From contig NZ_CP085258.1 of NCBI RefSeq assembly GCF_044790785.1, positions 2,559,689-2,623,688 on the forward strand: a stretch of DNA of 64,000 bases, written 5' to 3'. Of this stretch, positions 1,377-42,563 are shown piece by piece. The notes below the pieces were generated by a model. That model searched no databases, had not been told where the DNA came from, and saw only the letters and a program-made list of their open reading frames with translations. Every line of letters starts with the position of its first letter. Position 1 is the first letter of the stretch. Source of the DNA: Thalassospira australica (GTDB lineage Bacteria > Pseudomonadota > Alphaproteobacteria > Rhodospirillales > Thalassospiraceae). The translations under genes and the position numbers were made by a program.

Positions 1377-1410
1377 TAGGCTCAGTTTAGGATTTATGCT
1401 GCCAGCGGCA

Positions 1411-4305: not shown

Positions 4306-7300
4306 TTGAAAGGTCAGACGTTGCAGAAGCGCACAAACACGTTTGCGCCGGGGACAGAACGGCAGGGAGAACCGCTTACAACGCCGCAGTCGAGCATATG
4401 GCTTGACTGGGCCGAAGGCGACGATTGCGCAAATTACAATATTTGCAGCGTCATCCGGTTCGAGGGCGATCTTGATATTGCAGCCCTTTACAAGGCAATT
4501 GTCCAAACCGATCAGGAAAATGACGCCCTGCGTCTGCGCTTTGCATCAGAAGGCGGCAATCCGTTTCAGACCTTTGCCGATGACTGCCGCGAAACCGATT
4601 TCAGCGTCATCGATTTAAGTTTTACCGATGATCCGGTTCTGATCGCCAATAACGAAGTCGAGGAAATCCGCCGCCGTCCGCTTGACCCGGAAAACGGATA
4701 TCATTGCCGCCATCGCCTGTTGCAACTGGGCACGGGACGTTACTGGTGGGTTCGGGTCTATCATCATCTGGTCTGTGACGGATATGCCGGGCATTTGATG
4801 GCGCAACGCGCGGCGGAAATTTACAGCGCACTTAAAACCGGTACTGCCGTCCCCGAAAGCACATTCGGGTCCTATGGCGACTTTATCGCTGCTGACGCGA
4901 CCTATCCCGAAACACCGGCCTATCAACGTGACCTTGTCTATTGGCAGGAACGCCTGCAAAACGATCACGCGATCACGCGGTTTTCATCCGACAAACCATC
5001 GGGAAAGCTGATTCAGGCCCGGCTGGAACAGACGCTGGATGGTCAGGAACTTGCCAGACTGACCCAGACGGCCAAAGCCTGCGGCACATCGCCCACCGCG
5101 ATTGTCATGGCCACATATTTCATCCTGCTGGGTCAGGTCACCCATATCAAACACCCGACCGTCACCATGCCGCTTCTAAACCGGATGGGACGGGTGGAAC
5201 GCCATACGCCGGGGGCATTTTCCTATATCGTGCCCTTCGATGCCGATTTGGGAAAACACTCACGTTTTTCGGAATTGGCCCGCGATATCTTTGCCCGGGC
5301 GCGTCGCGATGTCCGGCATATGCGCCTTGGCGCGCCGCGCATGCGTGCGGCAAGGCTGGGTGCCAGGGGCCTGTCGGGCGGCGGTGCCTTTTTCAACAGT
5401 CTGGACGGGGCAGAACCCTTATCCTTTACCGGGATCGATACGCGCCGGGTCAATATCTATAACGGGCCGGTCACCGACCTTGGCCTGATCTATATGATGC
5501 AGGCCATAAGCCCGGACAGGCAGGAAGCCGAAATCATCTGGCAATATGATACCGCTTGTCACGACGTTAAATCCGTTACCCGCATCGCCGACCGTTTCCG
5601 TCATTTCCTGTCCCGTGCACTGGACGACCCGGAACAGGAAATTGCGACGATTGCCGCACCGCCATTGGACGAGCTTGCCGTTATCCGCAAACTTGAAACC
5701 GGCGCGGCATTCACAAGACCGGTTCCCGAACGACTCATTCCTGACCGAATTCAGCACGCCATATCATCACGCCCCGGCGATATCGCGCTGATCACCGATG
5801 ATGGCCACGAAGTCACCTTTGCAACGCTGGGCCACATGGCCAATGCCGTTGCGCATCACCTGCGCCAAAGCGGGATTGCAGCGGGTGACTTTGTCGGCAT
5901 GAATGTCTCGCCGAGCGCGCAGCAAATTGCCGCTGTGATCGGCGTCCTGAAATGCGGGGCAGTCTGCGTGCAGCTCGACCCGTTGCAGCCCGTCGCACGC
6001 AACGCGTCGATGACACGTCATCTTGATTGCCGACTTGTTCTGAGTGACAACACCGACGCATGGCGCGAGATCGGCAACACCACCATCACGGTGAAGGATA
6101 TCAACGCCGTGCCGGGCATTGACGGCAGAACCGTCTTGGAAGATGTCCGTGCCGATATTTGCGGTGACGATATTGCCTTTGTCTTCCATACGTCGGGTTC
6201 AACCGGGCAACCAAAACCGGTTCCCGTTCATCACCAATCCCTTGCCGACAAGATCGACGTCGCCATTGCGCTATTCGGCATCGGATCACATGAAAACGGC
6301 AATCCTGAAACTATAGGACTGTTCCCATCGCTCGGATTTGATCCGTGGATGCATCAATTCTGTGTCGGGTTGATCTGTGGCCATCGTATGTGGCTGATGA
6401 CCCATGCGATACTCAGCGACGGGCATAAATTCTGGAACGGTGTAGCGCGACACCATGTCACCCACCTTATGTCGGTGCCATCATTTTATGAAAGTGTGAT
6501 TGATGCCATTCCGGCAGATGGCAATTTCAAATTGCGCCGAATGATCATTGGCGGCGAGGTCCTGCAACCAACACTTTCCCGGCGGCTTTATTCCGTTTTC
6601 GAGTCTGCCGATATCTGGAACTGCTATGGCCCGACCGAAGCCACAATCCATGCCGCTACCCATCTGATCCCAAGGGACATCAAAACCAAAAACATCCCGC
6701 TTGGCTGCGTCGACAGGGGGGCATTTGTCCGGATACTTGATGAGGACGGAAAACGGGTGCCGCTTGGTGTTCCGGGCGAGATTTACCTCGGCGGGATCGG
6801 GCTTAATCGCGGCTATATCAATATGCCCGCAGTAACCGCTGAAAAGTTTATCAAAGACCCGACTGGCGAGACCGGTGAAACCTTTTATCGCAGTGGCGAT
6901 CTGGTTTCCTGGGGCGAAGACGGGCTGCTTTATTATCATGGGCGCACGGACGAGCAGGTCAAAATCCGCGGGCAACGTATTGAAATCGGGGAAATCGAAT
7001 ACCAGCTTTCGCGTGTTTCCGGCGTTGGACGGGCTGCCGTATCGTATGTCAAAACCAATCATGGCGGCGAACTGATCGGTTATCTTCTATCCAACGGAAA
7101 CCCTTCGTCGCGGCCCGACATTGGCACCGTGCGTGGCGAACTGGCGCACCACCTGTCCGACGCAGCGGTTCCGACCCGCCTTGAATGGGCAGAAACGCTT
7201 CCACTGCTGCCGTCGGGCAAAATCGACCGTAAAGCACTTGCTGAATTTGCCGCACTCCGCGACAGCAAGCAACCTGTTGCCCAAGCCACCAGCCCGCAAC

Positions 7301-10300
7301 CAGCGGTCCGTAAACCCGATCAGATGCGCATCCTTCAACTGGCAGATAAAATTGCCAAAATCTGGATGGATTTGATCGAAACCGACGAAATTGAATTTGA
7401 CACCAACCTGTTTGAAGCCGGTGCCCATTCATTGCTGGTGCCACGTGCCCAGTTTGCCCTGTCAAAACTTGCCGGTCGCAATATCGCGTCGGTCGAAATA
7501 TTCAATCATCCGACCATCAATTCCTTTGCCCGTCACCTTTGTGCCGATGACCAAGCCCCCCCCGAAACCGTACAGGCCGACCCAGTAAAGTCCCAACGCA
7601 ATGTGTCTGAGAATCACGACATTGCGATTATCGGCATGGCGATGCGCCTGCCCGGTGCGAATGATCCCGACGCCTTCTGGTCAATGCTTGAAAACGGGAT
7701 CAATCAGATAAAGGATGTCGATATTTCGCGGCTAAGCGCAATGGGCGGCGATCCATCGGCGCTCGAAGACGCCGATTTCGTCGCACGTCACGGGATTCTC
7801 GACGATATCGATATGTTCGATCCCGCCCCGTTTGCCATGACTGCGGGCGAAGTCATCGAAACCGATCCCCAACAACGCCTGCTGCTTGAAGTCGCCCTTG
7901 GCGCGATGGAAGACGGGTCTTGTGATCCGGCGCGCGACGGCCCTGTCGGTGCCTATGTTGGCGTCGGTTTCCCGACCTATCTGGTCGACAGCCTGCGCGA
8001 CAGCCTGCGCGACCGCCCCGATGCGATCCGGTATGGCGTAACAATCGGCAATGACAAGGACTTCGCCGCCACACGGCTTGCCTACAAGCTGAACCTGACC
8101 GGCCCGGCCATCGCATCCTCGACCGCATGCTCGACCGGTCTTGTCAATATTGCGCTTGCCGTAAATGCATTGCGGTCCGGCCAATGCCGTGTCGCCCTTG
8201 CCGGTGGTGCCTCCCTTGGGATCAGCCCGGCTGGCGGATATTATTTCACGCAGGGCGGCATCGGATCACGAAGCGGCGTCTGCCGCCCGTTCGACAGCAA
8301 GGCAGACGGCGTTGTCGGCGGCAGCGGTGCGGCCATTATTCTTCTGAAACGTCTTGATGATGCCATTGCCGACAGGGATACCATTCATGCGATCATCAAA
8401 GGTGTCGGTATGAGTAATGACGGCTCTGCAAAAGCCGCCTTTACCGCCCCCAGTGTCGATGGTCAGGCAAAAGCCATCCAGACGGCCCTTGACGACGCCC
8501 AAATCGATCCATCCACCATCCGCTTTGTCGAAGGCCACGGCACCGCAACAGCCCTTGGCGACCCGATAGAGATCGCCGCACTGAACAAGGTTTATGCAAA
8601 GGCCGATGCAAGGCCAACGCATCCGATCTGGCTTGGCTCGGTCAAGGGCAATATCGGCCATCTGGACAGTGCCGCCGGAATTGCCGGTCTGATCAAGGCC
8701 GTATTGGCAATCCGCCACCGGGCATTCCCGCCGACCTGCCATTTCAATCAACCGAACGAAAACCTTGGTCTGGATCAGGGACCTTTTCGAATAAACAATA
8801 CCGTTCAACCATTGTCGAATAATGATGATGAACCGCTGCGCGCGGGCATCAGCAGCTTCGGGGTTGGCGGCACCAATGCGCATGTGATTATCGAGGAGGC
8901 CCCCCGTTTCGATGGACCGGCATCACGCCAGACACAAAACGATATTCCCCATATCCTACCGTTCTCGGCGGCAAGCGAAACCGCCTTGCAGAAACTTCTG
9001 ACCAACACCGCAAGCTGGCTTGACCGCCACGGATCAGGCATGGCGATATCCGATGTGGCCAACAGCTTGTCGTGCCGCCGCGCCTATCGTTTCAGGGCCG
9101 CCATCGTTGCCACCGACATCAACGCTGCGATTTCCTCCCTGACAAATCCGAAATCGCCCGCCCATCACCAATCCGTTGCCAGACGCAACACTCCTTCCAT
9201 CACCTTCCTGTTCCCCGGTCAGGGATCGCAACGACCGGGCATGGCTAAAGATCTTTGTGCCGCCGATCACGCATCAGCAGAACGGATACGCAATGCCTGC
9301 CTGCATGTGGCACAAACCGGTGGCCCCGATGATCTGTTTGACTTGCTGACCGTGCCTGATGAAAGCCCGGCAACCGCAAACCGCATGGCACGCACCGAAA
9401 TAGCCCAGCCCGCCCTGTTCATTTATGAATATGCGCTGGCAAACTGGCTGATCGAAAATGGCATTTCTCCTGCGGCACTGGCCGGGCACAGCATCGGCGA
9501 ATATGTCGCCGCCTGTATTGGCGGGGTTATGTCCTTTGACGATGCGCTTCGCCTTGTGGTGATGCGCGGTCGCCTGATGGGCCAGACCGAACCGGGATCA
9601 ATGTTTGCCCTGTCCATGGCCGAGGCCGAGGTCGGTGATCTTCTGTCGGCCTTTGGCCCCGATCTGTCGATGGCCGCAATCAACGGACCGCGTCAATGCG
9701 TGGTGGCAGGCAGCACCGAATGCATCGACGCACTTGAAGATCATATCACGGCTCAAGGGAAATCCGGTCGTCGGCTTGTGGTTTCCCATGCCTTCCATTC
9801 ACGCATGATGGAACCGGTTCTCGACGAATTCCGCAATACGGTCGCCAAAATCAGGCTGAACGCGCCAACCCTTCCGATCCAGTCCAACCTGACCGGTAAC
9901 TGGCTGACACCCGAAGACGCCACAAGCCCCGATTACTGGGTTCAACATCTGCGCAATGCGGTGCGCTTTGCCGATAATATCAAGGGACTTATCGCCGAAA
10001 TGCCCGAAACGATCATGGTCGAATGCGGTTTTGGCAACACGGCAAGCCGCCTTGCCATCGTCAACGGTACCCCGACGGGAAACAGCATGGCCCTGCAACC
10101 TGCCCCCGATGCCGCCCGAAAAACAGATGCCGTCATCACCGGCTCAAATGCACTGGCCGGAACGATTGCCAGACTTTGGGTCATGGGCACGTCGCCCGAT
10201 TGGGACAAGGTCAACCAATCCCATGATGCCCGCCGCATTCCATTGCCGACCTATGCCTTTGATCGACGCCGGTTCTGGCCGGACAAGGGAACCACCACAA

Positions 10301-22700: not shown

Positions 22701-25700
22701 CCACCGGCCGAACCCGAACGCACCCTGCTGTCCGAAGTTTCTCTATCCTATATGAACTATGCACAGGGCGATTACGGACCGGACGAACAAGCCAAATCCA
22801 TGCGCCCCATTGGGCTTGGCCGGCAGCAATGCAAAAACGATCTGGCGATCTTTGTGCGCGACCTTCCCGAAAGAATGGTCATCTCGTTCGACTATTATGT
22901 CGATATGTTTGATCGCGCCCGCATGGTCGAACTCGGTCACATCTTTACGACAACCCTGAAAAAACTGGTTGCCACGGACGCCAACGCAAACACCGCACCG
23001 ATTGCCTCCCTGGATCTTCTGCCCGATGATCAGAAAGCAAATATCGAAATCTGGGAACAGGGTCCGCAACCGGAAACCAGCCTTGATGCGGATGCGAATG
23101 CCGGGATCTTTGCGATATTCGCCAATCAGGCCTCCGTCACCCCCGATGCCCCTGCCATCCGCGATACCAATGGCACATGGACCTTTGGGGAACTGCATGC
23201 CAAGGCGCGCGCCATTGCCAATTGCCTGCAAACCGCCGGGATCGAACCGGGCGATCTGGTTGCAATGCATATTGAACGTGGTCGTCCGGCCATTGCCGCA
23301 ATTCTCGCGATTACCGCCATCGGCGCGGGATATGTCCCGCTTGATCCGGCCTATCCGGTGGCACGCAATCAATTCATCCTTGCCGACAGCGGGGCCAAAC
23401 TGGTTCTGGTTGATAACGCCGGGCATGACGCCCTTGGCTCCCTGTCCGAAACCGGCGATCCATCCCCGCAACGGATCAATATTGTGGGCATTGCCCCGGC
23501 ACCAGCCGATTTCACCCTTCCCGAACTGACCAACCCGGACAGTTTTCCTGCCTATATCATGTATACCTCCGGCTCGACCGGAACGCCCAAGGGGGTTCTG
23601 ATCGAACAGGGTGCAGTACGCCGGCTGGCATTGGGCGCGGATTACGCCAAAATCGTTGCCTCTGATGTGGTGGCACAGGCAGGCCCACTGGCATTTGATG
23701 CCTCGACCTTTGAAATATGGGCGACCTTGCTGCGTGGTGCGGAAATCGCCGTGATTGACCGCGATGACCTGCTTGATCCGGCCAAACTCGGCGATGCCCT
23801 GTCGCAATCGGGTGTTACGAAAATGTTCATGAGCGTCGGCCTGTTCAACCGTCAGGTCGATCATGATCCCCGCACCCTTGCCGGGCTTGATATCCTGATG
23901 GTCGGCGGGGACGCGATCAGCAAACAGCATGTCCGCACCTTTATCGCCGCCTGCCCGCACGTCACGGTTCTGAACGGTTATGGCCCGACCGAAAGCACGA
24001 CCTTTGCCGTTGTCGGCCCGATCACCGAAAATGATCTGTCGGGCGATACCGATGCCACCATCATCGGCAAACCCATCCCCTGTACCAAAACGCTGATCCT
24101 TGATCAGAACGGTCAACGCACCCCGGTTGGCGTCTGGGGCGAATTGATGATTGGCGGGTCACGTCTGGCGCGCGAATACTGGCAACGTCCCGACCTGACC
24201 TGCGAACGGTTCATCCCCGATCCCGATCAGCCCGGCGAACGGCTCTATCGCACCGGCGACCTGACCCGATGGACCCGCGAGGGCCGAATCGAATTTGGCG
24301 GCCGTCATGACAATCAGATCAAACTGCGCGGTTTCCGTATTGAACTGGATGAAATCGAACAACAGCTTCAATCCACACCCGACATCAAAAATGCGGTTGC
24401 CCTGTTTGACTCGATCGCCCCTGATGGTGGGGCGATCATCGGCTGTATTCAGACGACACAGAATCAGGATATCGATTTCCCTGCCCTGATGACGTGGCTT
24501 GGCCAACATCTGCCCGGCTACATGATCCCGGCGAAATGGCATATCGTCGATGCCATCCCGATCACCGCCAATGGCAAGGTCGACCGAAAGGCCCTGCTCG
24601 AAACGGTGCGCACGCAATCGAGCGCGCTGGCCCTTGACGGCAACACCGATACCCCGCCCGCCAACGCCGCCGAAAAACTGGTTGCCGATATCTTTACCGA
24701 GGTTTTCGCAACCCCCATCCGTAACCGGCACGCAAGCTTCACCCAGCTTGGCGGTCACAGTCTGATGGCAATCCGGATCGTAAACCGCATTGCGGATCGG
24801 ACCGGCAAACGCATCAGCATGGCCGACTTCTTTGCCGATCCGACGGTCGCGGGGCTTGCCCGCCATATCGACAATGCCACCATTGATATCGCCGCAACCG
24901 GCAATGGCCAAATCCCGCCCGCACCGGAAATGGAACATTACCCGGCCAGCCACGCGCAAAAACGGCTTTATCTGCTCTCAAAGATGGACGGCAACAGCGG
25001 TGCCTATGGGATGCTTTATGTCTTCCGCTGCACCGGTGATTTGCGTGCCGATATCCTGCAATCCGCCCTGACCCGGCTGGTCGACCGTCATGAAACATTG
25101 CGCACGGGCTTTGCCGAACAGGACGGCACGATCACGCAGAAAATCCATGCCACCACCCCGCCCGCCGTCGCGTTTGACGATCTTTCCGGTCATGCCGATC
25201 CGGCCCGCGAAGCCCTTCGTCTGACCCGGCTTGAGGCGGCAACACCGATCATCCTCGATCAGCCGCCGCTGATCCGCGGGCGCGTCATCCGGGTGGCGGC
25301 CAATGAAAGCCTGATGATCCTGATGACCCATCATATCGTCGGCGATGGCTGGTCTTCGCGCATCCTGATCAACGAACTTGGCGCGCTTTATGATGCCGTC
25401 CTTCATCAGCGGAACGATGCCCTGCCGCAACTTCCGATCACATACAAGGATTTCGCCCATTGGCAATCCCGACAGGATTGGGCCGATGCTGCCGATTACT
25501 GGCGTCAACAGCTTGCCAATGCCCCGGAACAGATCAATCTGCCAACGGATCGCCCTGTACCGGAAAAACAATCCTTCCGCGGCGCGCATGTGCATCTTGC
25601 CCTGCCTGATGACGTCCTGTCCGGCCTGCACCAGCTCGCCAGCCGGAACAAAACAACCCTGTCATCGGTTGGCCTGTCGCTGTTTTCCGCCATGCTCTAT

Positions 25701-26252
25701 CGCCTGACGCGCCAACCTGACATGGTTATCGGCATGGGCGTTGCCGGGCGTGAACGTATCGAGACCGAGGGCCTGATCGGCTTCTTTGTCAATGTCCTGC
25801 CGATCCGCATGCAGCTTGACGACGACACCGATCTTGGCGACCTGATCCGTACCACCCATATCAATATTGGCAATGCGCTGGACCGGCAGGATTTCCCGTT
25901 TGATGAACTGGTCCGGGCCGTCGCACCAAAACGCAAATCCAACCGTCAGCCGCTGGTTAATGTGGTGTTCGAATATCAACGCTTCGAAGCCGTAACCAAT
26001 ATGACGCAATCCGGTCTGCCGCTGCTGGCTCCCGATGCCGACGGCATCCTGCCATCCAATATGGATGCCTTTGTCGATAACACGACGGCCAAACATGACA
26101 TCATTCTGTTCCTGACCGAAGAAGCCGGTCAGGCACGCTTCACCCTTGAATATGACACCGATCTGTTCGATGCGGAAACCATGCAGCGCTGGTTGGCCTT
26201 CCTTGGCAAATTTGCCGCTGCCGCCGCACAAAATGCCCAAAGGGATGCATAA
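10728..26252 (+). CDS. hybrid NRPS-PKS, modules 3-7: docking-C-A-T-C-A-T-KS-DH(like)-KR-ACP-ACP-C-A-T-C
   Basis: 5174 aa. TubC-N-like docking N-terminus (LLDKLRQRDIALSLHANGHDLCFDAP). C domains IDHLCFDGQS (~11331; first His replaced by Asp), HHAICDGWS (~14431), HHTVSDGFT (~22111), HHIVGDGWS (~25330). Three A domains with TSGSTG(A/R/T)PKGV cores (~12710, ~15838, ~23565). PCPs LGGHSL / VGGNSL / LGGHSL. KS DTACSSSL (~17750), EAHGTGTSLGDP, GNYGHLDGAAG, followed by a KS-AT-type linker but no AT (no GHSxG). DH-like region with degenerate HxxxGxxxxP (HHLNGQPTLVGMAVP). KR GGTGGFAMA plus YSAANAFLD. Two tandem carrier domains DDDFFALGGDSITGMQIVDRMNAEL. Ends in a C domain. ATG at 10728 with GGGAG SD; stop overlaps the gene 3 ATG. 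Confidence 0.9.
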   Translation: MNTDQLFRRTQTARTLLDKLRQRDIALSLHANGHDLCFDAPTGAFDDALKSETRDLKAEIIGLLRAPSEPDTKGSSAGPILKSFPAHPAIEGQWIARRDQPTSANYHIVTGFSLPEGTGFSAVRDAIATIVKRHDALRSTFVEQDGQLIQRVHAYMPVSVRKIETTREIRHDLFDLATGPLARFGYVGHDDGQVPQLAMAIDHLCFDGQSVMLLQKELLAILAGNPPGNIPDIEKLVRNAHYNLDRERGEIARKFWSSRTDKLLSVGLPDDPATDSNGDGKRFLIELTGQDAEAVAKLASHTRKTTQTTLWAALTIAVIARHKENATAIIGLPFAGRRDRETMQSMGCFVNLLPVAIKPDMTGTLENLTRQVGHEVLSILDVQDYPLSRLVHDLTQAAQGPIGQPFDAVHVMETSDSPFVIEDLDFGAGKFPLMIGMMKNGAETFLAVEYQSNIYGNAWAERFAKRFLTFARALAKNPDMPLGLVDLLPEDERDHLSITLNDTASDYPHDCGLGELLARQIAKPANADKVALQDRDRKITYRMLGQRVAAISAGLDALDVAPGSIVALAADRSLDAIITLLGIAWHGAAYLPIDKSLPGDAIATLMAECGAGILLCDDAEFERLSGLSGRVRIARLPDTNATSDATFTRRSGDDLAYVMFTSGSTGAPKGVLIPNRAVARLVVNNRALAFDDTDVMAQAASLGFDAATLEIWAPLLNGGRLVLIDNETLFDPESLHNALKDGGVTTMWLTASLFNRIADDAPGCFAPLKRLLSGGEVLSPAHLQKVMAACPDLALINGYGPTENTTFTCIHPITAQDVQSANIPIGRPIGNTRTYILDTGGQPVPTGVWGELYAAGDGLALGYSGAPERTAKAFVTFDHLPETRLYKTGDRARWRADGVIEFGGRGDGQVKIRGHRIETAAIEKRLAEIDGIRNACVIAADSGADAFLGAAIAADQDNSTIWMQVLGRNLPDYMIPERFLVLDHLPVNVNGKVDRKQLLHALTDTAPLVPQTGNAATGNELEQIVTEQFRALFGNRDITPSSDFFALGGHSLVAMRLAGLLEKSTGIRPKLQDIFVARTVGGIATLLANHKQNGKQFRIPKADGPKFPLSSGQARLWVLQRMQPDMAVYSVPAAFEINGPIDADALQAALHKLEERQHALRLRFKSDPHHPDGVSQYLAPAGSWVLGRHQMDEGPARLFIARETVRPFDLENKPLARADLITLAPKRHWMLVSLHHAICDGWSMPTLLRDLAALYAAETGATAASLPLLDRHYEDFASWQHGYLNSTGGKDLLARWKERLLPLPEPLALPSDRRRPKVRRFAGDFNEIAFGEQTTRLINDAADRHGTTAFSILTALVQILMYRQCGQTDIPLGMLVAGREQTALDDVVGFFVNTVVLRQNVDPNAGFDDHLAQTGKTIIDALSDQAAPFEDVVAAVNAPRDPARNPLFDVLVAWQDSIPNLGKLGDAELSLLKTEFPFSKFDLAFYFSKQNDALLCQIEFDTDLFDKSTIQAIFNRLEILAVAALSTSSSAKIAELPILPANERTRIDQFNATDLDLVIERSISEPFIDQVRATPDAPAVIGTSATLSYEQFARRAAGIAAKLRAASVGPGDVIGVAVRRSVDMLAAIHGILLCGAAYSPLDPDHPEQRRTDMLDDLGYPRVVTTADLADLFDANNVLIIDGHEDADIPDAINAPDDLAYVLFTSGSTGRPKGVEIAHRGVLNRILWMQDAFPIGPDDVILQKTPITFDVSVWELFWWSWTGARIVLPDPGVERDPQQLAQAIRDHGVTTMHFVPSMLASFLFSVEHGLVDIEHLGSLKRVFASGEALDPALVKRFNDLLFDRFGTELHNLYGPTEATVDVTWHACSPLENPDIVPIGKPIANTTIRILDDKLGDMPIGIAGEIVLGGPQIALGYRNRPELTTEKFPDDPRNPGHKLYRTGDLGRFLADGSVEYLGRIDHQVKIRGFRIECGEVETTIESHDLVERALVKAVRVGGLDELHAFVLGDDALTLGILRDHLRTRLPEYMIPARFFALDHLPLTSSGKVDRKALSGTPMAGSPKTASRRSKPAIAARSDADNPDLENLERVLQRLWQEILPGVIAGRDDGFFDVGGNSLLLLRLHEKINARWPGTISIADLFASPTIARQAELLAGLDIATDDPEPAKGAPLATNEPIAVIGIGLQLAGADDIDTFWADVARGADRVRPLPPERDHETRDMMAAIGRSVPARFREAAYLDHIFDFDPGRFRMAPADAALIDPEQRLFIETALMAMENAGYGGQALRGQKVGIFAGGGANPAWRIAMEHVARDKAEQIFALNVPSNMVTRLSFLKDWRGPASIVDTACSSSLVAVHQACQNLRSGTCTVALAGGAKLIPCPPDADGGFTIDSSTARTRAFDDAADGTGMGEGSVVFVLKPLGNAIADGDPVHAIIRGSAVNQDGASSGAAAPNPAMQADVIRQAAQTADIELGSLSYIEAHGTGTSLGDPIEIDGLTRAFAQSTDENGFALIGSAKGNYGHLDGAAGALGLARAIMALRFDQAPPQPFFETPNSRIDFARAPVRPTNRLEPLADRGAPRRAGVSSFGLSGINAHVILEAAPKRSANAPYDIAQNGTFILALSAANEAALTDYAAKLHRDIANDTTLDVRDICHTLATGRDQLRHRFAVSVSDRQSLLHALAGLIAGDTANCAAPKPAAFSVPAVSGDPADATANARQWLEGANLIWPEDMRARRVSLPHAPFAKIVCKPVFGDTRAPDNTIMTGPVETERGRCFAIPVASPSFWPTNEHHLNGQPTLVGMAVPAMIATAARNGMGDPSVHISDLKWQKTLLPNALPDGTATLLLGNDGHVELGGRLKNGKWSVFATAHWTNDAPANSHRDNLPSLDHVRAKCTLAANIPPYAPQIGPITISDRWDCRTSMHYSADETTAIMHLKLKPQYHADLRDWIIHPAMADIACSMILTAEDNGSLPVGIDEIILHAPFSGDIIVCADRRHPGQADFTFFDADSHKLLLTIRGIRFSGDSNGKAESAMPELLEIDWLPGTVEMQPVPENTLMIVDGDFWPVPPACLRIHPDALATTGKDMLATAQNVILALEPGEDIALRTARCLRSILRTMRGRMRFVVAGCGAYQINGDTIPTNPDQSAAAGVAIAASAEEPRLVLSFADIAPDDFLAYIGTELATEPGHDPVAAYRNQVRYCRKLRPVSAHDNLAKTNWPDHGVCVVTGGTGGFAMALADEMAMGGKVALALLARRGEDGLDATTRTQLAHLRATGIKVSIHTCDVADKDALSDTLATIRNSLGPITAIAHAAGLADGGFLAVRDMDAFDTIMAAKINGARHLDTLTLNDPVQAFVMFGSLTAIVGVPGQAAYSAANAFLDGFARYRRSQGRPALTIDWCALADQGMAARHNVPLQDGAAITPQQAPVFWRDAMHSTAAQLVVLDPALAGETAAQPVKPVSAPASASPSTPDIPQKIATIWAETLGYDAIAPDDDFFALGGDSITGMQIVDRMNAELKLSLAISDLFAAPTVSDLAAQFGPSPAGDVNLPEPSRYHEAISTGPVNPTDKIAKIWAEILGYDNIDPDEDFYALGGDSITGMQIVDRMNAELACNIGLADLFETPTITALATKISPSVETVKPSPVSLSPAPKPAQPKVKLEVEVETDPRRAPEMEFYPLAPEQVSVLHAEQSGNLGTAFNLPHAFMLDDSVDLDRLRDAIIRLTERHEILRTRLIAKGDDWVMKILPLHDALPDLTLIELDASVSLEDAGVYLVMPFDLATEIPARWRLLCAADGQKALFFDIHHTVSDGFTIEMLLSELLAIYRGQPLPPVPYQLRDYAWWSHLPESRKRLETARDYWLSLYQGPLPRLDLPSDRKRPAFHSFTGEIVAFDLDPAVLKSARKFASDQRVTMFSLMMATWFAVLGRIAATDDLVISVPVNQRDGAGFRDAPGMMVSLLPLRMQIADDETFASLLHKVQNHHIDALRHRAYFLDLLLDDLSPPAEPERTLLSEVSLSYMNYAQGDYGPDEQAKSMRPIGLGRQQCKNDLAIFVRDLPERMVISFDYYVDMFDRARMVELGHIFTTTLKKLVATDANANTAPIASLDLLPDDQKANIEIWEQGPQPETSLDADANAGIFAIFANQASVTPDAPAIRDTNGTWTFGELHAKARAIANCLQTAGIEPGDLVAMHIERGRPAIAAILAITAIGAGYVPLDPAYPVARNQFILADSGAKLVLVDNAGHDALGSLSETGDPSPQRINIVGIAPAPADFTLPELTNPDSFPAYIMYTSGSTGTPKGVLIEQGAVRRLALGADYAKIVASDVVAQAGPLAFDASTFEIWATLLRGAEIAVIDRDDLLDPAKLGDALSQSGVTKMFMSVGLFNRQVDHDPRTLAGLDILMVGGDAISKQHVRTFIAACPHVTVLNGYGPTESTTFAVVGPITENDLSGDTDATIIGKPIPCTKTLILDQNGQRTPVGVWGELMIGGSRLAREYWQRPDLTCERFIPDPDQPGERLYRTGDLTRWTREGRIEFGGRHDNQIKLRGFRIELDEIEQQLQSTPDIKNAVALFDSIAPDGGAIIGCIQTTQNQDIDFPALMTWLGQHLPGYMIPAKWHIVDAIPITANGKVDRKALLETVRTQSSALALDGNTDTPPANAAEKLVADIFTEVFATPIRNRHASFTQLGGHSLMAIRIVNRIADRTGKRISMADFFADPTVAGLARHIDNATIDIAATGNGQIPPAPEMEHYPASHAQKRLYLLSKMDGNSGAYGMLYVFRCTGDLRADILQSALTRLVDRHETLRTGFAEQDGTITQKIHATTPPAVAFDDLSGHADPAREALRLTRLEAATPIILDQPPLIRGRVIRVAANESLMILMTHHIVGDGWSSRILINELGALYDAVLHQRNDALPQLPITYKDFAHWQSRQDWADAADYWRQQLANAPEQINLPTDRPVPEKQSFRGAHVHLALPDDVLSGLHQLASRNKTTLSSVGLSLFSAMLYRLTRQPDMVIGMGVAGRERIETEGLIGFFVNVLPIRMQLDDDTDLGDLIRTTHINIGNALDRQDFPFDELVRAVAPKRKSNRQPLVNVVFEYQRFEAVTNMTQSGLPLLAPDADGILPSNMDAFVDNTTAKHDIILFLTEEAGQARFTLEYDTDLFDAETMQRWLAFLGKFAAAAAQNAQRDA
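21195..21533 (+). repeat. intragenic tandem duplication encoding two near-identical carrier (ACP/PCP) domains
   Basis: A 60-nt block gcccttggcgg(g/c)gattccat(c/a)accggcatgcagatcgtggatcgcatgaatgccgaactg occurs at 21195-21254 and again at 21474-21533 (2 mismatches, 279 nt apart). The flanks are about 80 percent identical. Confidence 0.85.
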
Positions 26253-29200
26253 TGAAAATCGCCGATTTCGATTTTGAAACTCTCGACACACCACCCGGGG
26301 CAGACAACCAACCCGATTCCCGACCATCGGCAACAACCGGCAGCATCGTGACCCGGTTTGCAACGATTGCCGCGTCGCATCCCAATCGCATTGCAACCCG
26401 CGATGAAACCGGCGAAATCAGCTATGCCGAACTGGACCGCCAAAGCAATCGTATCGCGCATTTCATTACCGGGCTTGCCCTGCCCGCCGGATCGCTTGTC
26501 GGCGTGATGACCGGGCGCAACCGCCATTACATCACCGCAACCCTTGGCGTCCTTAAGGCCGGTTTTGCCTTTGTGCCGCTTGATCCGAATGTACCGCTGA
26601 TCCGCCGCACCACACTGGTCCGCAATGCAGCACTACCGCTGATCATTTCCGAAGGCCCCCATATCGGCGACCTGCACCAGTTGCAGTGGCGCTGCAAAAC
26701 CGTCACCGACATTCTGTGTCTTGACCATGACGATATTGATATCCTGACGGAAAATCCCGGTTCCCTGATGTCGGTTGAACTGTGGGATCATCTGGCCGGC
26801 GATGATGCCGACAACATTCTGGCGGGTGGCTGGAAAAGTGCCTTTACCGGGCAGCCGATTGCGCAAAGTGCGATGGATGCCTTTGGCGCAAATGCGCGCA
26901 ACAAGGTCGCCGGTCTGGTATCACGCGATGCCCGCGTACTTGAAATCGGCTGCGCATCCGGTTTCACCATGAAGCATGTCGCCCCCGTCGTCAGCACCTA
27001 TGTCGCGACCGATCTGTCGCGTCGCAACGTCGAACGGACCGAGGCCCTGGCGATCAATCTTGGCATGACCCATGTTATCGGTCGGCAGCTTGGCGCGCAT
27101 GATATCGATGTTTATGAACCGGGCTCGTTCGACCTGATCATCATGAACAGCGTCATCGAAAACTTCCCCGGCTACGGTTATCTGCGCACGGTCCTGGCAA
27201 AGGCAAAAACCCTGTTGGCACCGGGTGGAGCGATTTATCTTGGCAATGTCTGGGATGCGGATCGTCGCGATGATTACCTTGCCGATCTGGCGCAGTTTGC
27301 CCGTGACACGGTGGGCAAGGGATACAATACCCGACTTGATTTCCTCGAAGACCTGTTTGTCCCCCAGTGCTTCCTTGAAGACTGGGCACGCGAACAGGGC
27401 GGCTTTGCCGCCAACCGATCCGCAATCGATGCCGACGGGTTCGATCCCGCCCCCTACACATTCGATTTCGTCCTGACAACGGATGCTGCCAAACAGCCTG
27501 CCCCGCCGCAAAAGCGCCGCCACGATCTGGCCGCACTGACCAACGATGCGCACACCGCAACCGAAACCAATGCAAACGATCTTGCCTATGTCCTGTTCAC
27601 CAGCGGTACCACCGGCACGCCAAAGGGGGTGATGATCGAACATGGCTCGGTTGTAAATCTGGCCCAGTCGGTTCTCGATACGCAGTTAAAACAGATCGGT
27701 GCCGATGCTCCCGACCGCGCCCTTAACCTGACCTGTGTCGCGCCCTTTGCCTTTGACGGCTCCATCGTTCAGATTTTCGCGGCCATCCTGAACGGGCATT
27801 GCCTGAACATCACCGGATCGGCCACGCGAAGCGACCCGGAAGCCCTGCATCACCTGATGGTCGCCAACGCAATTGATCAGCTTGACGCAACGCCAAGCCT
27901 GTTTTCCCTGCTCCTTGACTACTGGGAAGAAAACCGGCTTTCCTGCCCGGCTAGGATGGTGGTTCTGGGCGGTGAAACGGTTTCCGCCCGACTGGTCGAA
28001 CGTTTCTTTGCCCTGCCCGGCCAGACCGACCGCAAACTGGTCAATGCCTATGGCCCGACGGAATGCTGCGTTTCATCGGCCCAGTATGTGATGACCGCGC
28101 ACAACCATAAACAGATTCTGCCGCCCCCAATTGGCAAGGCCATTCAGGGCGTGCATGTGGAAATCTGCGATGATATGGGCCGCCCCTTGCCCGATGGTGT
28201 TCCGGGCGAAATCCGCATCGGCGGTGCCGGTGTCGCGCGCGGCTATCTGAACGACCCGGCCCTGACCGCGCACAAATTTGTCACCGATCACAACGGCAAC
28301 CGGTTCTATCGCAGCGGCGATATGGGCCGGCGGCGCAATGATGGCGAAATCGTTTTTCTTGGGCGCGAAGACGGCCAGATCAAGGTGCGCGGCAACCGGA
28401 TCGAACTGGGCGAAGTCGAACATGCCCTGCTTGCCCATCCCCATATCCGCCGTGCCGCCGTGGTCGCCCATGACCGTCATCAGAACGGCAATGTTGTTCT
28501 GGTCGGTTATGTCGTGACCGATGACAATGCCCATGCCGATTTCGATATCGCGGCGTGTAGGGCAAAACTTGAACAGGCCCTGCCGAACTATATGGTGCCC
28601 AACCATCTGATCACGATGGATGACCTTCCGCTGACCGTGAATGGCAAAATCGATCTTTCACGCCTTCCCATCCCCGAAAACACCGATCAGGCCACAAGCA
28701 CCACCGCAAAGCCGCTTGGCAGCGACCATGAACGCACCGTTGCCCGCCTGATGGGCGAGGTCCTTGATTGCACCGTCGATGACGCCACCGCCGATTTCTT
28801 TGAACTCGGCGGTCACAGCGTCCTTGCGGTTCAGTTCCTGTCAAAAATCAACAAGGTTACCGACGTCAAAATCCCGCTGGGCGATCTGTTTACCTGTGCC
28901 TCGGTCGAAAAGCTCGCCGCGCGCATTTCCGAACGCGAAAACGAAAGCGACGCCAAAAGCCCGATTGTCACCGTCAATGCAGCGGGTACCAAACCACCGA
29001 TGATCTGCTTCCATCCGGTCGGCGGCAATGTGCTGTGCTATCAAAACCTTGCCCGTGAATTCGGCCCCGATCAGCCGCTTTACATGGTCGAAGCCCAAGG
29101 CCTCGAAGAAGGCCAGAATTTGCAGCCAACGGTCGAGGAAATGGTGGCCGCATACATGCCTGCCATCCGCCACACCGTTCCCGACGGCCCGATCCATGTC

Positions 29201-29767
29201 ATCGGCTGGAGCTTCGGCGGATTGCTGGCCTTCGAGGCCGCCTTCCGCATGCAGCAGGCAGGGATCGATGTGCGCAATATCATCCTGCTTGATGCGATTG
29301 CCGTGCCCGATGCGGTCCGCGCCATCCTGCGCAAGGGCGAGGCCGAATATCTTGCCGATATCTTTGCCGAACTCGGCCTTGTCACGGTTGACGAATTGCG
29401 TCCGCTCACCCCCGAAGAACGCATCGACCTGTTGCTGGAACGCGGCAAAAACTGCGACCTTCTGCCTGACGAGGCAGATCGCGGCACCATGCGCCGCCTG
29501 CTTGCAGTATTCCAGAATAACGCACTGGCCGCCGTACATTATGTCCCGCCGAAAATTGACGGGATTGATGTCCTGCTGCTGCGCCCGACAACCGAAACCC
29601 GCGCCGCACCCAGCATCGAAGGCGATCAATATAGCGGCTGGCAAAGGGTCGCGGGTGATGCCCTGACCCTTGAATGGGTTGGCGGCACCCACGGATCAAT
29701 GATGTTCGATCCCCATGTGATCGAAGTTGCCGAACGCATCCGCCGTCATCTTGAAAAATCGAAATGA
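26252..29767 (+). CDS. NRPS termination module: A domain interrupted by a SAM-dependent methyltransferase (between cores A2 and A3), then T and TE
   Basis: A1/A2 cores (LKAGFAFVPLDP). Class I MT motif LEIGCASGF plus DLIIMNSVIENF (~26940-27200). A3 LAYVLFTSGTTGTPKGV (~27600), NAYGPTE, GEIRIGGAGVARGY, YRSGDMGRR, GQIKVRGNRIELGEVE, NGKIDLSRL. PCP FFELGGHSVLAVQF (~28805). TE GWSFGG (~29205). ATG at 26252 with AAGGGA SD, overlapping the gene 2 stop. Confidence 0.9.
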   Translation: MKIADFDFETLDTPPGADNQPDSRPSATTGSIVTRFATIAASHPNRIATRDETGEISYAELDRQSNRIAHFITGLALPAGSLVGVMTGRNRHYITATLGVLKAGFAFVPLDPNVPLIRRTTLVRNAALPLIISEGPHIGDLHQLQWRCKTVTDILCLDHDDIDILTENPGSLMSVELWDHLAGDDADNILAGGWKSAFTGQPIAQSAMDAFGANARNKVAGLVSRDARVLEIGCASGFTMKHVAPVVSTYVATDLSRRNVERTEALAINLGMTHVIGRQLGAHDIDVYEPGSFDLIIMNSVIENFPGYGYLRTVLAKAKTLLAPGGAIYLGNVWDADRRDDYLADLAQFARDTVGKGYNTRLDFLEDLFVPQCFLEDWAREQGGFAANRSAIDADGFDPAPYTFDFVLTTDAAKQPAPPQKRRHDLAALTNDAHTATETNANDLAYVLFTSGTTGTPKGVMIEHGSVVNLAQSVLDTQLKQIGADAPDRALNLTCVAPFAFDGSIVQIFAAILNGHCLNITGSATRSDPEALHHLMVANAIDQLDATPSLFSLLLDYWEENRLSCPARMVVLGGETVSARLVERFFALPGQTDRKLVNAYGPTECCVSSAQYVMTAHNHKQILPPPIGKAIQGVHVEICDDMGRPLPDGVPGEIRIGGAGVARGYLNDPALTAHKFVTDHNGNRFYRSGDMGRRRNDGEIVFLGREDGQIKVRGNRIELGEVEHALLAHPHIRRAAVVAHDRHQNGNVVLVGYVVTDDNAHADFDIAACRAKLEQALPNYMVPNHLITMDDLPLTVNGKIDLSRLPIPENTDQATSTTAKPLGSDHERTVARLMGEVLDCTVDDATADFFELGGHSVLAVQFLSKINKVTDVKIPLGDLFTCASVEKLAARISERENESDAKSPIVTVNAAGTKPPMICFHPVGGNVLCYQNLAREFGPDQPLYMVEAQGLEEGQNLQPTVEEMVAAYMPAIRHTVPDGPIHVIGWSFGGLLAFEAAFRMQQAGIDVRNIILLDAIAVPDAVRAILRKGEAEYLADIFAELGLVTVDELRPLTPEERIDLLLERGKNCDLLPDEADRGTMRRLLAVFQNNALAAVHYVPPKIDGIDVLLLRPTTETRAAPSIEGDQYSGWQRVAGDALTLEWVGGTHGSMMFDPHVIEVAERIRRHLEKSK

Positions 29768-30541: not shown

Positions 30542-30641
30542 CCGGGTGGCCTTCTGTGCGTCATCAAAAACAGATAAAAAAAGAATGCCCAAAGCACGCT
30601 TTGGGCATTCTCGAAATACGGTCTGAAAACCCGATGATCAA

Positions 30642-31202: not shown

Positions 31203-31303
31203 TATCGCCTCTTGAATTTCTACCTGTAAGTTGATGATCTGCACGCAAAACTTATTCTTCAACTTTACCTGAACTAACCGAAAGTAGCAATGTGTAACAC
31301 CCT

Positions 31304-32698: not shown

Positions 32699-32756
32699 TC
32701 ATCATCTCGTCGTCGGGTGTATCATGGCGCATGCTGATCGCCCCTCAGCCATCATC

Positions 32757-32954: not shown

Positions 32955-32998
32955 CGTTTCGCCACCCGAATTCCTGTTATTGCGCGATTACGCATTCT

Positions 32999-33505: not shown

Positions 33506-33700
33506 AACGTCCCCCGGTTTATTGTCCCGTGCCAAATCATAATCGCTAACTATCAGCACTGCAAACCGAATCAAGGTTTTATACAGCCTTGACCCAACTC
33601 CCGATGCAATCAACCATATGGTTTGTGAAAGCCGGTTTCTGAGGATATAACCGGCTTAACAGGATCATGATTTGAAAATATATGTCGCCGGAGACACGTT

Positions 33701-42561: not shown

Positions 42562-42563
42562 TC

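What the first reader, a model, noticed from the sequence alone, without database searches (positions are those of the whole stretch)
4306..29767. 25.5 kb three-gene hybrid NRPS-PKS assembly line (5 NRPS + 2 PKS modules) with TAATG-coupled genes
Direct motif reading gives C-A-T-KS-AT-T (gene 1), docking-C-A-T-C-A-T-KS-DHlike-KR-ACP-ACP-C-A-T-C (gene 2) and A(MT)-T-TE (gene 3). The inferred product is an N-capped pentapeptide interrupted by two ketide units: one malonate with beta-keto retained, one beta-hydroxy or olefin. One residue is methylated, and the chain is released by the TE (macrolactone, lactam or acid). The final module is split across genes 2 and 3 (C | A-T-TE). Both gene junctions are 1-nt TAATG overlaps with good SD sequences, implying strictly coupled stoichiometric expression. 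I cannot match this architecture to a characterised pathway by eye.
Basis: partly seen in the sequence, partly recalled or inferred. Interest (0 to 1): 0.8.

Follow-up and report, generated by a model that had tools for sequence, protein, structure and literature searches.

The report
Known thalassospiramide NRPS-PKS gene cluster
The three giant genes are real and were read correctly, but they are the Thalassospira australica copy of the already characterised thalassospiramide (ttcA-B-C plus ttcD) assembly line, which makes lipopeptide calpain inhibitors by a famously non-colinear route, so the finding is correct but not new.

Summary
There are three ORFs at 4306-10728, 10728-26252 and 26252-29767, joined by TAATG overlaps. 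Their domain order is C-A-T-KS-AT-T | dock-C-A-T-C-A-T-KS-(no AT)-DH-KR-T-T-C-A-T-C | A(MT)-T-TE.

The window is Thalassospira australica chromosome; genes 2 and 3 are exact matches to WP_404420596.1 and WP_404420598.1. The locus is the orthologue of the thalassospiramide cluster ttcA-C plus the PPTase ttcD:
- It lacks the same domains as published Ttc (KR1b, AT4, MT5).
- The published mutant residues TtcA-G631, TtcA-K972 and TtcB-K2045 fall on the same-numbered catalytic residues here.
- It aligns collinearly over 35.8 kb at 89.7% nucleotide identity with T. xiamenensis M-5, with TtcA/B/C at 87.5/90.1/95.2% amino-acid identity.
- Gene 3 is 49% identical to the protein a source names TtbB, from Tistrella.

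In the characterised orthologue, module 1b is usually skipped, A3 loads T1a, the chain is passed back from module 4 to module 2, KR4 and MT6 act across modules, and the AT-less module 4 uses an AT encoded outside the cluster.

Novelty: already known. Interest: low.

The parts
3057..3944 (+). LysR-family regulator gene directly upstream (the 'ttc -1' position). It is conserved in T. xiamenensis M-5. Deleting it did not affect heterologous production in the published work.
   Evidence: Pfam HTH_1 + LysR_substrate; same gene in M-5 locus L001; paper.
4306..10728 (+). ttcA orthologue: modules 1a (C-A-T) and 1b (KS-AT-T). The longest ORF starts at TTG 4306 (2140 aa, which is the paper's numbering). 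The likely real start is TTG 4321 (2135 aa).
   Evidence: 87.5% aa identity to M-5 TtcA.
4372..5661 (+). C1a, starter (lipo-initiation) condensation domain, HHLVCDG at aa 153.
   Evidence: Pfam Condensation aa 23-452; motif; the best PDB sequence matches are 7c1h/7c1k/7c1p and 4jn3 (CDA peptide synthetase I), which from my own knowledge are the RzmA and CDA starter C domains. C1a inactivation abolishes all products in the orthologue.
5752..7230 (+). A1a adenylation domain (Phe/Tyr in the orthologue). Specificity code DPHSIGCIHK; A3 motif G631; A10 K972.
   Evidence: mutants TtcA-G631D and TtcA-K972A in the paper.
7333..7545 (+). T1a carrier domain (approximate limits), variant GAHS motif with Ser1042.
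   Evidence: Pfam PP-binding, 2 stretches; sequence.
7618..8745 (+). KS1b ketosynthase with the Cys/His/His residues present (STACS, EGHGTA, NIGHL).
9202..10011 (+). AT1b acyltransferase, GHSIG + HAFH (malonyl-type motif). It is the only AT-like coding sequence in the whole window.
10426..10617 (+). T1b (ACP) of PKS module 1b. This module has no KR.
10728..26252 (+). ttcB orthologue (5174 aa): modules 2, 3, 4 and 5, plus C6. Exact match to WP_404420596.1 (Thalassospira australica).
   Evidence: 90.1% aa identity to M-5 TtcB.
10770..10922 (+). N-terminal TubC_N-type docking domain.
   Evidence: Pfam PF18563, E 1.6e-7.
10965..13988 (+). Module 2, C2-A2-T2 (approximate limits). C2 has DHLCFDG rather than HHxxxDG. 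A2 code is DALWLGGTFK (Val). C2 is the acceptor for pass-back in the published model.
   Evidence: paper.
14046..17177 (+). Module 3, C3-A3-T3. A3 code is DVWHFSLVDK (Ser); A10 is K2045. In the orthologue A3 also loads T1a.
   Evidence: TtcB-K2045A in the paper.
17244..18776 (+). KS4 (DTACSS, EAHGTGT, NYGHL) plus the KS-flanking linker (KAsynt_C_assoc / RhiE-like). There is no AT domain: this is a trans-AT-type module.
19005..19787 (+). DH4, a divergent dehydratase (approximate limits). Catalytic His lies in NEHHLNGQ and Asp in HPAMAD.
   Evidence: Pfam PS-DH E 9e-4; motif-level alignment to RzxB and CurF DH; sequence. The paper annotates a DH in module 4.
20370..20912 (+). KR4 ketoreductase: TGGTGG, an LAD motif (B-type-like), and S...YxxxN.
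   Evidence: Pfam KR E 1e-48; motifs.
21126..21602 (+). Tandem carrier domains T4a and T4b: 67% aa identity, both with LGGDSI, Ser motifs 93 residues apart.
21720..24872 (+). Module 5, C5-A5-T5 (approximate limits). A5 code is DAFFMGGTFK (Val-like).
24933..26234 (+). C6, the condensation domain of the split terminal module (HHIVGDG).
26252..29767 (+). ttcC orthologue (1171 aa): A6 interrupted by MT, then T6 and TE. Exact match to WP_404420598.1 (Thalassospira australica).
   Evidence: 95.2% aa identity to M-5 TtcC; 49% to Tistrella bauzanensis TtbB.
26918..27286 (+). MT6 methyltransferase, inserted in A6 upstream of the A3 core motif (SGTTGTPK at aa 451). The motif I Gly is G233, equivalent to G234 in the 1174-aa forms.
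   Evidence: TtcC-G234D in the paper.
28736..29743 (+). T6 (LGGHSV) and the TE (GWSFG), the releasing and cyclising thioesterase.
29780..30592 (-). ttcD orthologue, an Sfp-type 4'-phosphopantetheinyl transferase convergent with ttcC. These are maximal ORF limits; the M-5 gene encodes 257 aa.
   Evidence: Pfam ACPS / 4PPT_N; same position in M-5. Deleting TtcD lowers titre about 5-fold in the paper.

Best explanation
[quoted passage not shown] It encodes a seven-module hybrid NRPS/trans-AT-PKS line.

Shown here: gene and domain anatomy, intact catalytic motifs, adenylation specificity codes, orthology and synteny.

Inferred from the experimentally dissected orthologue in Thalassospira sp. CNJ-328:
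1. C1a N-acylates the residue on T1a with a roughly C10 fatty acid.
2. T1a is loaded either by A1a (Phe/Tyr) or, preferentially, by the downstream A3 (Ser).
3. PKS module 1b (KS-AT-T, no KR) is usually skipped. When it is used, its beta-keto group is reduced by KR4.
4. Modules 2 (Val), 3 (Ser) and 4 (KS-DH-KR-T-T, malonyl supplied by an AT encoded outside the cluster) add a Val-Ser-C2 unit.
5. The chain can be passed back from module 4 to C2 zero, one or two times.
6. On the last pass DH4 creates the alpha,beta-unsaturated gamma-amino acid.
7. Module 5 adds Val.
8. The split module 6 adds Tyr, N-methylated by MT6, which can also methylate the module-5 Val.
9. The TE releases the chain as a depsipeptide with a 12-membered ring.

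The ring's unsaturated carbonyl alkylates the catalytic Cys115 of calpain 1.
For: - Source organism: genes 2 and 3 are exact matches to T. australica RefSeq proteins on a 4.55-Mb contig.
- Architecture: the domain order from Pfam is what the Ttc paper describes. That is three genes plus PPTase TtcD, seven modules, missing KR1b, AT4 and MT5, tandem T in module 4, MT at the N-terminal side of A6, and no stand-alone AT or A nearby.
- Residue numbering: published point mutants land on the same-numbered catalytic residues here, namely TtcA-G631 (A3 motif), TtcA-K972 (A10 Lys) and TtcB-K2045 (A10 Lys). TtcC-G234 corresponds to the invariant motif-I Gly, which is 233 here and 234 in the 1174-aa forms.
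- Synteny: a 35.8-kb collinear alignment at 89.7% nt identity to T. xiamenensis M-5. The flanks are the same: aldehyde dehydrogenase, LysR | ttcABC | PPTase, DUF697, Band_7, DUF697, MFS, and onward. TtcA/B/C are 87.5/90.1/95.2% identical.
- Relatives: gene 3 is 49% identical over its full length to the protein a source names TtbB, from Tistrella bauzanensis. The alignment to TtbA skips the A5 N-terminal part, as expected for the published A5-less Tistrella line.
- Specificity codes: A2 DALWLGGTFK (Val), A3 DVWHFSLVDK (Ser) and A5 DAFFMGGTFK (Val-like) fit the Val-Ser-C2-Val core. They are identical to those of M-5.
- Starter domain: the best solved-structure matches to C1a are 7c1h/7c1k/7c1p and 4jn3, which I recognise as starter C domains.
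- Literature on distribution: every sequenced Thalassospira carried the cluster, as its only NRPS cluster (PMC5577590).
- Product target: PMC4350077.
Against: - No chemistry exists for this strain. The review notes that several cluster-bearing strains gave no detectable product.
- I could not retrieve the CNJ-328 ttc sequence itself. Identity to the characterised cluster is therefore inferred through residue numbering and through T. xiamenensis-group orthologues.
- There are small differences from the published description. The T4a-T4b repeat offset is 93 aa here, against an 86-aa recombination deletion in CNJ-328. A1a code position 239 is His here and Leu in M-5.
- The DH4 assignment is weak by sequence alone.
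- The A1a and A6 codes are non-canonical, so their Phe/Tyr and Tyr assignments rest on the orthologue rather than on prediction.
Confidence: 0.93

Rival explanations
1. Strictly colinear assembly line. Each of the seven modules acts once, giving a single N-acyl pentapeptide with two ketide units, the first keeping its beta-keto group.
For: The domain order itself permits this reading. Per the review, seven modules used colinearly would account for only the smallest members of the family.
Against: In the orthologous Ttc line:
- KS1b inactivation leaves the dominant 'A1-like' products, so module 1b is normally skipped.
- A1a inactivation leaves the Ser-first products, so A3 loads T1a.
- Products carry 0-2 extra Ser-C2-Val units, which requires pass-back.
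- The module-1b ketide is found reduced, as a statine-like residue.
The catalytic residues concerned are conserved here.
Confidence: 0.04
2. The cluster is an intact but silent or non-producing copy in T. australica, because expression or supporting genes are lacking.
For: The review of Zhang et al. 2016 reports that several bacteria carrying the cluster had no detectable production, and attributes this to genes outside the cluster. The simple scan found no sigma-70-like promoter between the LysR gene and ttcA.
Against: All three ORFs are uninterrupted over 25.5 kb, with every catalytic motif intact and 88-95% identity to orthologues. That pattern implies purifying selection. The PPTase is present. 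The promoter scan is a crude consensus match and covers only one promoter type.
Confidence: 0.15
3. A related but chemically distinct product family: same scaffold logic, but with different building blocks.
For: The A1a code differs at position 239 from M-5 (His against Leu), and that position varies across the genus (H/L/E/Q/A). The A1a and A6 codes are non-canonical.
Against: The A2, A3, A5 and A6 codes are identical to those of T. xiamenensis M-5. The A1a code is identical to that of the T. xianhensis-group representative P0139. Residue 1 is already known to be variable (Ser/Phe/Tyr) within the known family.
Confidence: 0.05

Closest known systems
ttc thalassospiramide cluster of Thalassospira sp. 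CNJ-328 (TtcA, TtcB, TtcC, PPTase TtcD). Sources: Ross et al. 2013 JACS and Zhang W. et al. 2016 JBC (both cited, not readable here); Zhang J.J. et al. bioRxiv 10.1101/560987.
   Same: - Three genes plus a convergent PPTase.
- Identical domain order, with the same 'missing' KR1b, AT4 and MT5.
- Tandem T in module 4, and MT at the N-terminal side of A6.
- Published mutant residue numbers coincide: G631, K972 and K2045 exactly, and G234 with G233.
- LysR gene upstream.
   Different: - Different species (T. australica).
- TtcC is 1171 aa, against the 1174-aa form implied by G234.
- The T4a-T4b spacing is 93 aa, against the 86 implied by the published deletion.
- Direct sequence identity to CNJ-328 was not measured. 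Against T. xiamenensis M-5 it is 87.5-95.2% aa.
ttm / ttb clusters of Tistrella mobilis and T. bauzanensis (TtmA/B, TtbA/B), the 'incomplete' thalassospiramide lines.
   Same: The terminal A(MT)-T-TE protein (49% identity to TtbB) and the C-A-T-KS-DH-KR-T-T-C-...-T-C core (about 45% identity). Same product family and same pass-back logic.
   Different: Two genes instead of three; no module 1b; A1 and A5 absent or truncated (the alignment skips residues 4110-4431 of the window's TtcB); no PPTase; unrelated genomic context.
Syrbactins (syringolin / glidobactin).
   Same: A 12-membered ring with an alpha,beta-unsaturated amide that covalently traps a protease nucleophile by Michael addition. The comparison is drawn in PMC4350077.
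   Different: The target is the proteasome Thr1, not calpain Cys115. The assembly line is unrelated, and the ring is closed as a lactam rather than an ester.
Trans-AT PKS/NRPS hybrids such as bacillaene PksJ.
   Same: An AT-less KS module with a KS-flanking linker, and a KR acting on more than one position. The Ttc paper cites this as precedent.
   Different: Ttc has no dedicated trans-AT gene in or near the cluster (none in this 64-kb window). It also contains one cis-AT module.

Membership tests
ttc-type thalassospiramide NRPS-PKS cluster | Three consecutive genes with domain order C-A-T-KS-AT-T | C-A-T-C-A-T-KS-DH-KR-T-T-C-A-T-C | A(MT)-T-TE (seven modules). | tested here: met
   Pfam scans and motifs, compared with the description in 10.1101/560987 and PMC5577590.
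ttc-type thalassospiramide NRPS-PKS cluster | Characteristic missing domains: no KR in module 1b, no AT in module 4, no MT in module 5, and no stand-alone AT or A gene nearby. | tested here: met
   No KR hit in gene 1 and no Acyl_transf_1 hit in gene 2. tblastn with AT1b finds only itself in the 64-kb window. The only MT is in gene 3.
ttc-type thalassospiramide NRPS-PKS cluster | Adjacent PPTase gene (ttcD). | tested here: met
   29780-30592 (-) hits ACPS / 4PPT_N. Same position in T. xiamenensis M-5.
ttc-type thalassospiramide NRPS-PKS cluster | Orthology and synteny with ttc loci of other Thalassospira. | tested here: met
   35.8 kb collinear at 89.7% nt identity with CP004388.1; 87.5/90.1/95.2% aa identity. 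Homologues at 66-93% identity are named Thalassospira.
ttc-type thalassospiramide NRPS-PKS cluster | Catalytic residues at the positions mutated in the characterised Ttc proteins. | tested here: met
   G631, K972 (gene 1) and K2045 (gene 2) match exactly. G234 corresponds to G233 here and is 234 in the 1174-aa TtcC forms.
ttc-type thalassospiramide NRPS-PKS cluster | A-domain specificities compatible with Val (A2), Ser (A3), Val (A5) and Tyr (A6). | tested here: inconclusive
   A2, A3 and A5 have Val, Ser and Val-like codes. The A6 code (DGVDVGAVSK) and the A1a code (DPHSIGCIHK) are non-canonical. A6 resembles the Tistrella TtbB code DAIDVGAVGK.
ttc-type thalassospiramide NRPS-PKS cluster | Production of thalassospiramides (12-membered depsipeptide ring, N-Me-Tyr, variable acyl-peptide tail). 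| not testable with these tools
   Needs LC-MS/MS of T. australica or heterologous expression.
Starter (lipo-initiation) condensation domain, Cs | The N-terminal C domain is closest to known Cs domains rather than to LCL/DCL domains, with an intact HHxxxDG motif. | tested here: met
   HHLVCDG at aa 153. The top solved-structure hits are 7c1k/7c1h/7c1p and 4jn3/5du9 (CDA peptide synthetase I), E 1e-30 to 1e-33. That these are the RzmA and CDA starter C domains is from my own knowledge. No phylogeny was run.
Trans-AT PKS module | KS followed by a flanking linker without an AT, with the extender unit supplied by a discrete AT. | tested here: met
   KAsynt_C_assoc, RhiE-like and CurL-like linkers follow KS4, with no AT. 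The discrete AT is not in the window; the paper proposes a primary-metabolic AT. The identity of that AT was not tested.
Interrupted adenylation domain (A-MT-A) | A methyltransferase embedded between A-domain core motifs. | tested here: met
   AMP-binding matches as two stretches. The second begins at profile position 151 (aa 424). MT lies at aa 223-345 and the A3 motif at aa 451.

The most novel reading that the evidence does not exclude
Two modest possibilities remain.

1. The T. australica line makes analogues not yet catalogued. Its A1a pocket has His at code position 239, a position that varies across the genus, and its T4a-T4b linker is longer than the one implied for CNJ-328.

2. The family is much wider than the genera named in the literature I could read (Thalassospira, Tistrella, Oceanibaculum, Fodinicurvata). 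TtcC-like A(MT)-T-TE proteins at about 50% identity are named by sources as Telmatospirillum, Pleomorphomonas, Nitrospirillum, Chlorobium/Chlorobiaceae, Acidobacteria and Vicinamibacterales. Where I looked, they sit next to NRPS/PKS partners: a TtcB-like gene in Magnetovirga frankeli and a rearranged set of genes in a Chlorobiaceae MAG. A soil Proteobacteria MAG also carries a TtcC-like gene. Undescribed thalassospiramide-like covalent protease inhibitors may therefore exist outside marine Alphaproteobacteria.
Probability: 0.3. Interest if true: 0.4.

Novelty: already known. Interest (0 to 1): 0.15.

Why it matters
The thalassospiramide line is a textbook-breaking assembly line. It shows pass-back chain extension, module skipping, cross-module adenylation, ketoreduction and methylation, and a trans-AT module with no dedicated AT. 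Its products are nanomolar covalent calpain inhibitors. All of that is already published for the orthologous cluster, so this window adds only another species' copy. Its practical value is as a natural sequence variant (88-95% identical) for comparative or engineering work on pass-back. It also illustrates that colinear reading of domain order mispredicts the product.

Tried and rejected
- E. coli genome search with the first 9.7 kb found no match, so the window is not enterobacterial.
- + strand ORFs 1006-1563 and 1564-2955 gave no Pfam hits. The real gene there is the - strand aldehyde dehydrogenase at 1411-2910.
Only L007, a soil Proteobacteria MAG at 53%, is a true relative.
- Ross 2013 (JACS), Zhang 2016 (JBC) and the 2020 journal version of the bioRxiv paper are not held. 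Architecture and mechanism are therefore cited from the preprint and a review.
- The CNJ-328 ttc proteins could not be identified by name in the cluster listings, so no direct identity figure is given.
- The promoter scan of the LysR-ttcA spacer found no sigma-70-like site, only small hairpins. This is uninformative.
- The sequence search of the DH region against PDB was not significant (E 0.19), although the catalytic motifs align. I ran no further search on it, because the orthologue's chemistry already demands a DH.
- I considered Dickeya, Serratia and Pseudomonas hybrid clusters from GC content alone. The homologue names excluded them.

Full report
**1. Observation**

The window has three head-to-tail ORFs at exactly the coordinates given:
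- 4306-10728 (2140 aa from a TTG)
- 10728-26252 (5174 aa)
- 26252-29767 (1171 aa)

Both junctions read TAATG, with one shared A. GGGAG and AAGGGA lie a few bases upstream.

- Gene 1: C-A-T-KS-AT-T.
- Gene 2: TubC_N docking-C-A-T-C-A-T-KS-(KS-flanking linker, no AT)-weak DH-KR-T-T-C-A-T-C.
- Gene 3: an adenylation domain split by a methyltransferase, then T-TE.

Catalytic motifs are intact:
- C domains have HHxxxDG, except C2, which has DHLCFDG.
- KS1b and KS4 both have Cys/His/His.
- AT1b has GHSIG and HAFH (malonyl type).
- KR4 has TGGTGG, LAD and YxxxN.
- DH4 keeps the His (NEHHLNGQ) and the Asp (HPAMAD).
- The TE has GWSFG.

The DH is the only weak call: Pfam E 9e-4, PDB E 0.19. Even so, its two catalytic motifs align to the RzxB and CurF dehydratases.

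The likely true start of gene 1 is the TTG at 4321, preceded by AAAGG. The M-5 orthologue's annotated start aligns to residue 6, and the 2140-aa form is not in the protein collection.

**2. What it is**

Genes 2 and 3 are exact matches to RefSeq proteins of Thalassospira australica on a 4.55-Mb contig. Full-length homologues of gene 3 at 66-93% identity are all Thalassospira. At 49% identity, a source names one of them TtbB, from Tistrella bauzanensis. That name pointed to the thalassospiramide clusters.

The preprint by Zhang, Tang, Huan, Ross and Moore (10.1101/560987) describes the Thalassospira sp. CNJ-328 cluster as follows:
- It consists of ttcA-C plus a PPTase, TtcD.
- There is no stand-alone AT or A gene nearby.
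- Module 4 is trans-AT.
- KR1b, AT4 and MT5 are missing.
- Module 4 has a newly recognised DH and tandem T domains.
- ttcC encodes a four-domain terminal module, with the MT at the N-terminal side of A6.

This is exactly the anatomy found here. The convergent PPTase gene is at 29780-30592. tblastn with AT1b finds no second AT anywhere in the 64 kb.

**3. Independent tie to the characterised proteins**

The preprint's point mutants are TtcA-G631D, TtcA-K972A, TtcB-K2045A and TtcC-G234D.
- Residue 631 of gene 1 is the Gly of the A3 motif SGSTGQPK.
- Residue 972 of gene 1 is the A10 Lys.
- Residue 2045 of gene 2 is the A10 Lys.
- The MT motif-I Gly is 233 here. It is invariant across 14 diverse homologues and sits at 234 in the 1174-aa TtcC forms of the T. 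xiamenensis/xianhensis group. This reconciles the fourth mutant.

One small difference remains. The published T4a/T4b recombination deleted 86 residues (3511-3596). The two LGGDSI motifs here are 93 residues apart, at 3491 and 3584.

**4. Synteny**

The cluster of T. xiamenensis M-5 (CP004388.1) was assembled from loci L001 and L003. It aligns collinearly with window 4123-39723 over 35.8 kb at 89.7% nucleotide identity. TtcA, TtcB and TtcC are 87.5, 90.1 and 95.2% identical.

Gene order in the flanks is the same: aldehyde dehydrogenase (-), LysR (+) | ttcA-B-C | PPTase (-), DUF697, Band_7, DUF697, hypothetical, MFS, ABC substrate-binding, GNAT, NMT1-like binding protein, PALP enzyme. The 1-nt gene overlaps are conserved in M-5.

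A review (PMC5577590) states that ttc has seven modules. It also states that every sequenced Thalassospira carried the cluster, as its only NRPS cluster. Some carriers, however, showed no detectable product.

**5. Substrate codes**

I extracted the ten-residue specificity codes by alignment to GrsA-PheA.

| Domain | Code | Reading |
|---|---|---|
| A1a | DPHSIGCIHK | non-canonical |
| A2 | DALWLGGTFK | Val |
| A3 | DVWHFSLVDK | Ser |
| A5 | DAFFMGGTFK | Val-like |
| A6 | DGVDVGAVSK | non-canonical |

The A2 code is given after correcting one alignment gap.

A2, A3, A5 and A6 are identical to those of M-5. A1a differs only at position 239 (His against Leu) and equals the T. xianhensis-group code. 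The Val-Ser-(C2)-Val pattern fits the published Ser-C2-Val linker and ring. The Tyr assignment for A6 and the Phe/Tyr assignment for A1a rest on the orthologue's genetics and chemistry.

The best solved-structure matches to C1a are 7c1h/7c1k/7c1p and CDA peptide synthetase I, 4jn3. From my own knowledge these are the RzmA and CDA starter C domains, which agrees with the paper's starter-C annotation.

**6. How it most likely works**

These steps are inferred from the orthologue, not shown here.
- C1a acylates the T1a-bound residue with a fatty acid, mostly C10:1.
- T1a is loaded by A1a (Phe/Tyr) or, preferentially, by A3 (Ser).
- Module 1b is usually skipped. When it is used, the ketide is reduced, probably by KR4.
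- Modules 2-4 add Val, Ser and a malonyl unit. The malonyl comes from an AT outside the cluster; AT1b inactivation was partly complemented by that AT.
- The intermediate is passed back from module 4 to C2 zero to two times.
- Module 5 adds Val.
- C6 (on TtcB) and A(MT)-T-TE (TtcC) add N-Me-Tyr and release the cyclic depsipeptide.
- MT6 also methylates the module-5 Val at low frequency.

The 12-membered ring's alpha,beta-unsaturated carbonyl alkylates Cys115 of calpain 1 by Michael addition (PMC4350077).

**7. Comparison with relatives**

Tistrella bauzanensis TtbA/TtbB (locus L006) aligns with the window's TtcB at about 45% identity. The alignment skips residues 4110-4431, the A5 N-terminal part. 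This matches the published 'incomplete' A5-less architecture.

Magnetovirga frankeli has a 5128-aa TtcB-like gene followed by a TtcC-like gene. It is collinear through A5 at 43-47% identity.

A Chlorobiaceae MAG carries a rearranged set with a PPTase and an embedded ABC transporter pair.

**8. Verdict**

- The domain-level interpretation is right.
- The product prediction is naive.
- The statement that no characterised pathway matches is wrong.

The locus is an orthologue of a known cluster in a genus where the cluster is reported to be universal.

Novelty: already known. Interest: low. The main residual uncertainty is whether this particular strain produces the compounds, and which analogues. 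That needs LC-MS.

Noticed in passing
window 44242-63542: A second biosynthetic locus that looks like an aryl-polyene / xanthomonadin-type (type II FAS-like) cluster. It contains a stand-alone thioesterase (44242-45000, -), Ketoacyl-synt_2 (46111-46860), an acyltransferase (46853-47680), AMP-binding + ApeI-like dehydratase (48746-50434), GT2 + lipid-A acyltransferase (50335-52119), an aromatic amino-acid ammonia-lyase (52013-53674), a 773-aa protein with no Pfam hit (54710-57031), an FAD halogenase-like enzyme (57031-58269), DUF3261 (58251-58916) and two KS genes (58913-60142, 61286-62590).
   Followed up: partly
window 40912-44237; L005 1548-4828: Two adjacent ABC ATPase genes (549 and 557 aa) lie 11 kb downstream of ttcC. 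In order, they are 42% and 39% identical to an ABC pair embedded inside the TtcC-like NRPS/PKS locus of a Chlorobiaceae MAG. They are a possible dedicated exporter for this compound class. I did not test whether the pair is linked to ttc in other Thalassospira.
   Followed up: partly
L004 (Magnetovirga frankeli CP032508.2), L005 (Chlorobiaceae MAG JAAXWN010000001.1), L007 (soil Proteobacteria MAG): TtcC-like A(MT)-T-TE proteins at about 50% identity occur well outside the genera named in the thalassospiramide literature I could read. Sources name them Telmatospirillum, Pleomorphomonas, Nitrospirillum, Chlorobium/Chlorobiaceae, Acidobacteria and Vicinamibacterales. In the two contexts I inspected they have NRPS/PKS partners: a TtcB-like gene in Magnetovirga and a rearranged gene set in the Chlorobiaceae MAG. 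L007 matched on the TtcC-like gene only.
   Followed up: partly
window 1377-1410 versus L001 2055-7107: T. xiamenensis M-5 carries about 5 kb between the sigma-54 response regulator and the aldehyde dehydrogenase that the window lacks. The insert encodes a TonB-dependent receptor, a FhuF-like protein and an SbmA/BacA-type ABC protein. This is an indel of an iron/peptide-uptake module just upstream of the cluster.
   Followed up: no
window 6340-6348 region (gene 1 aa 679-683) and homologues P0138-P0146: Position 239 of the A1a specificity code varies among Thalassospira TtcA proteins (H, L, E, Q, A), while the other nine positions are nearly fixed. It could tune first-residue choice (Phe/Tyr) between species.
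   Followed up: no
window 11328-11348 (gene 2 aa 201-207) and 7423-7434 (gene 1 aa 1040-1043): C2, the domain proposed to receive both skipped and passed-back chains, has DHLCFDG instead of HHxxxDG. It is only 20-23% identical to C3 and C5. T1a, which is loaded by two different A domains, has GAHS instead of the usual GGxS.
   Followed up: no
window 26918-27286: The methyltransferase sits upstream of the A3 core motif of A6 (MT at aa 223-345, A3 motif at aa 451). To my knowledge backbone N-methyltransferases usually sit between A8 and A9. The paper links this unusual position to MT6 acting on the neighbouring module.
   Followed up: no
window 30642-33613 (-): A DUF697 / Band_7 (SPFH) / DUF697 gene trio lies immediately beyond the PPTase. 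It is conserved in the same place in T. xiamenensis M-5. In the paper, deleting the +1 to +4 genes had no effect on heterologous production.
   Followed up: no
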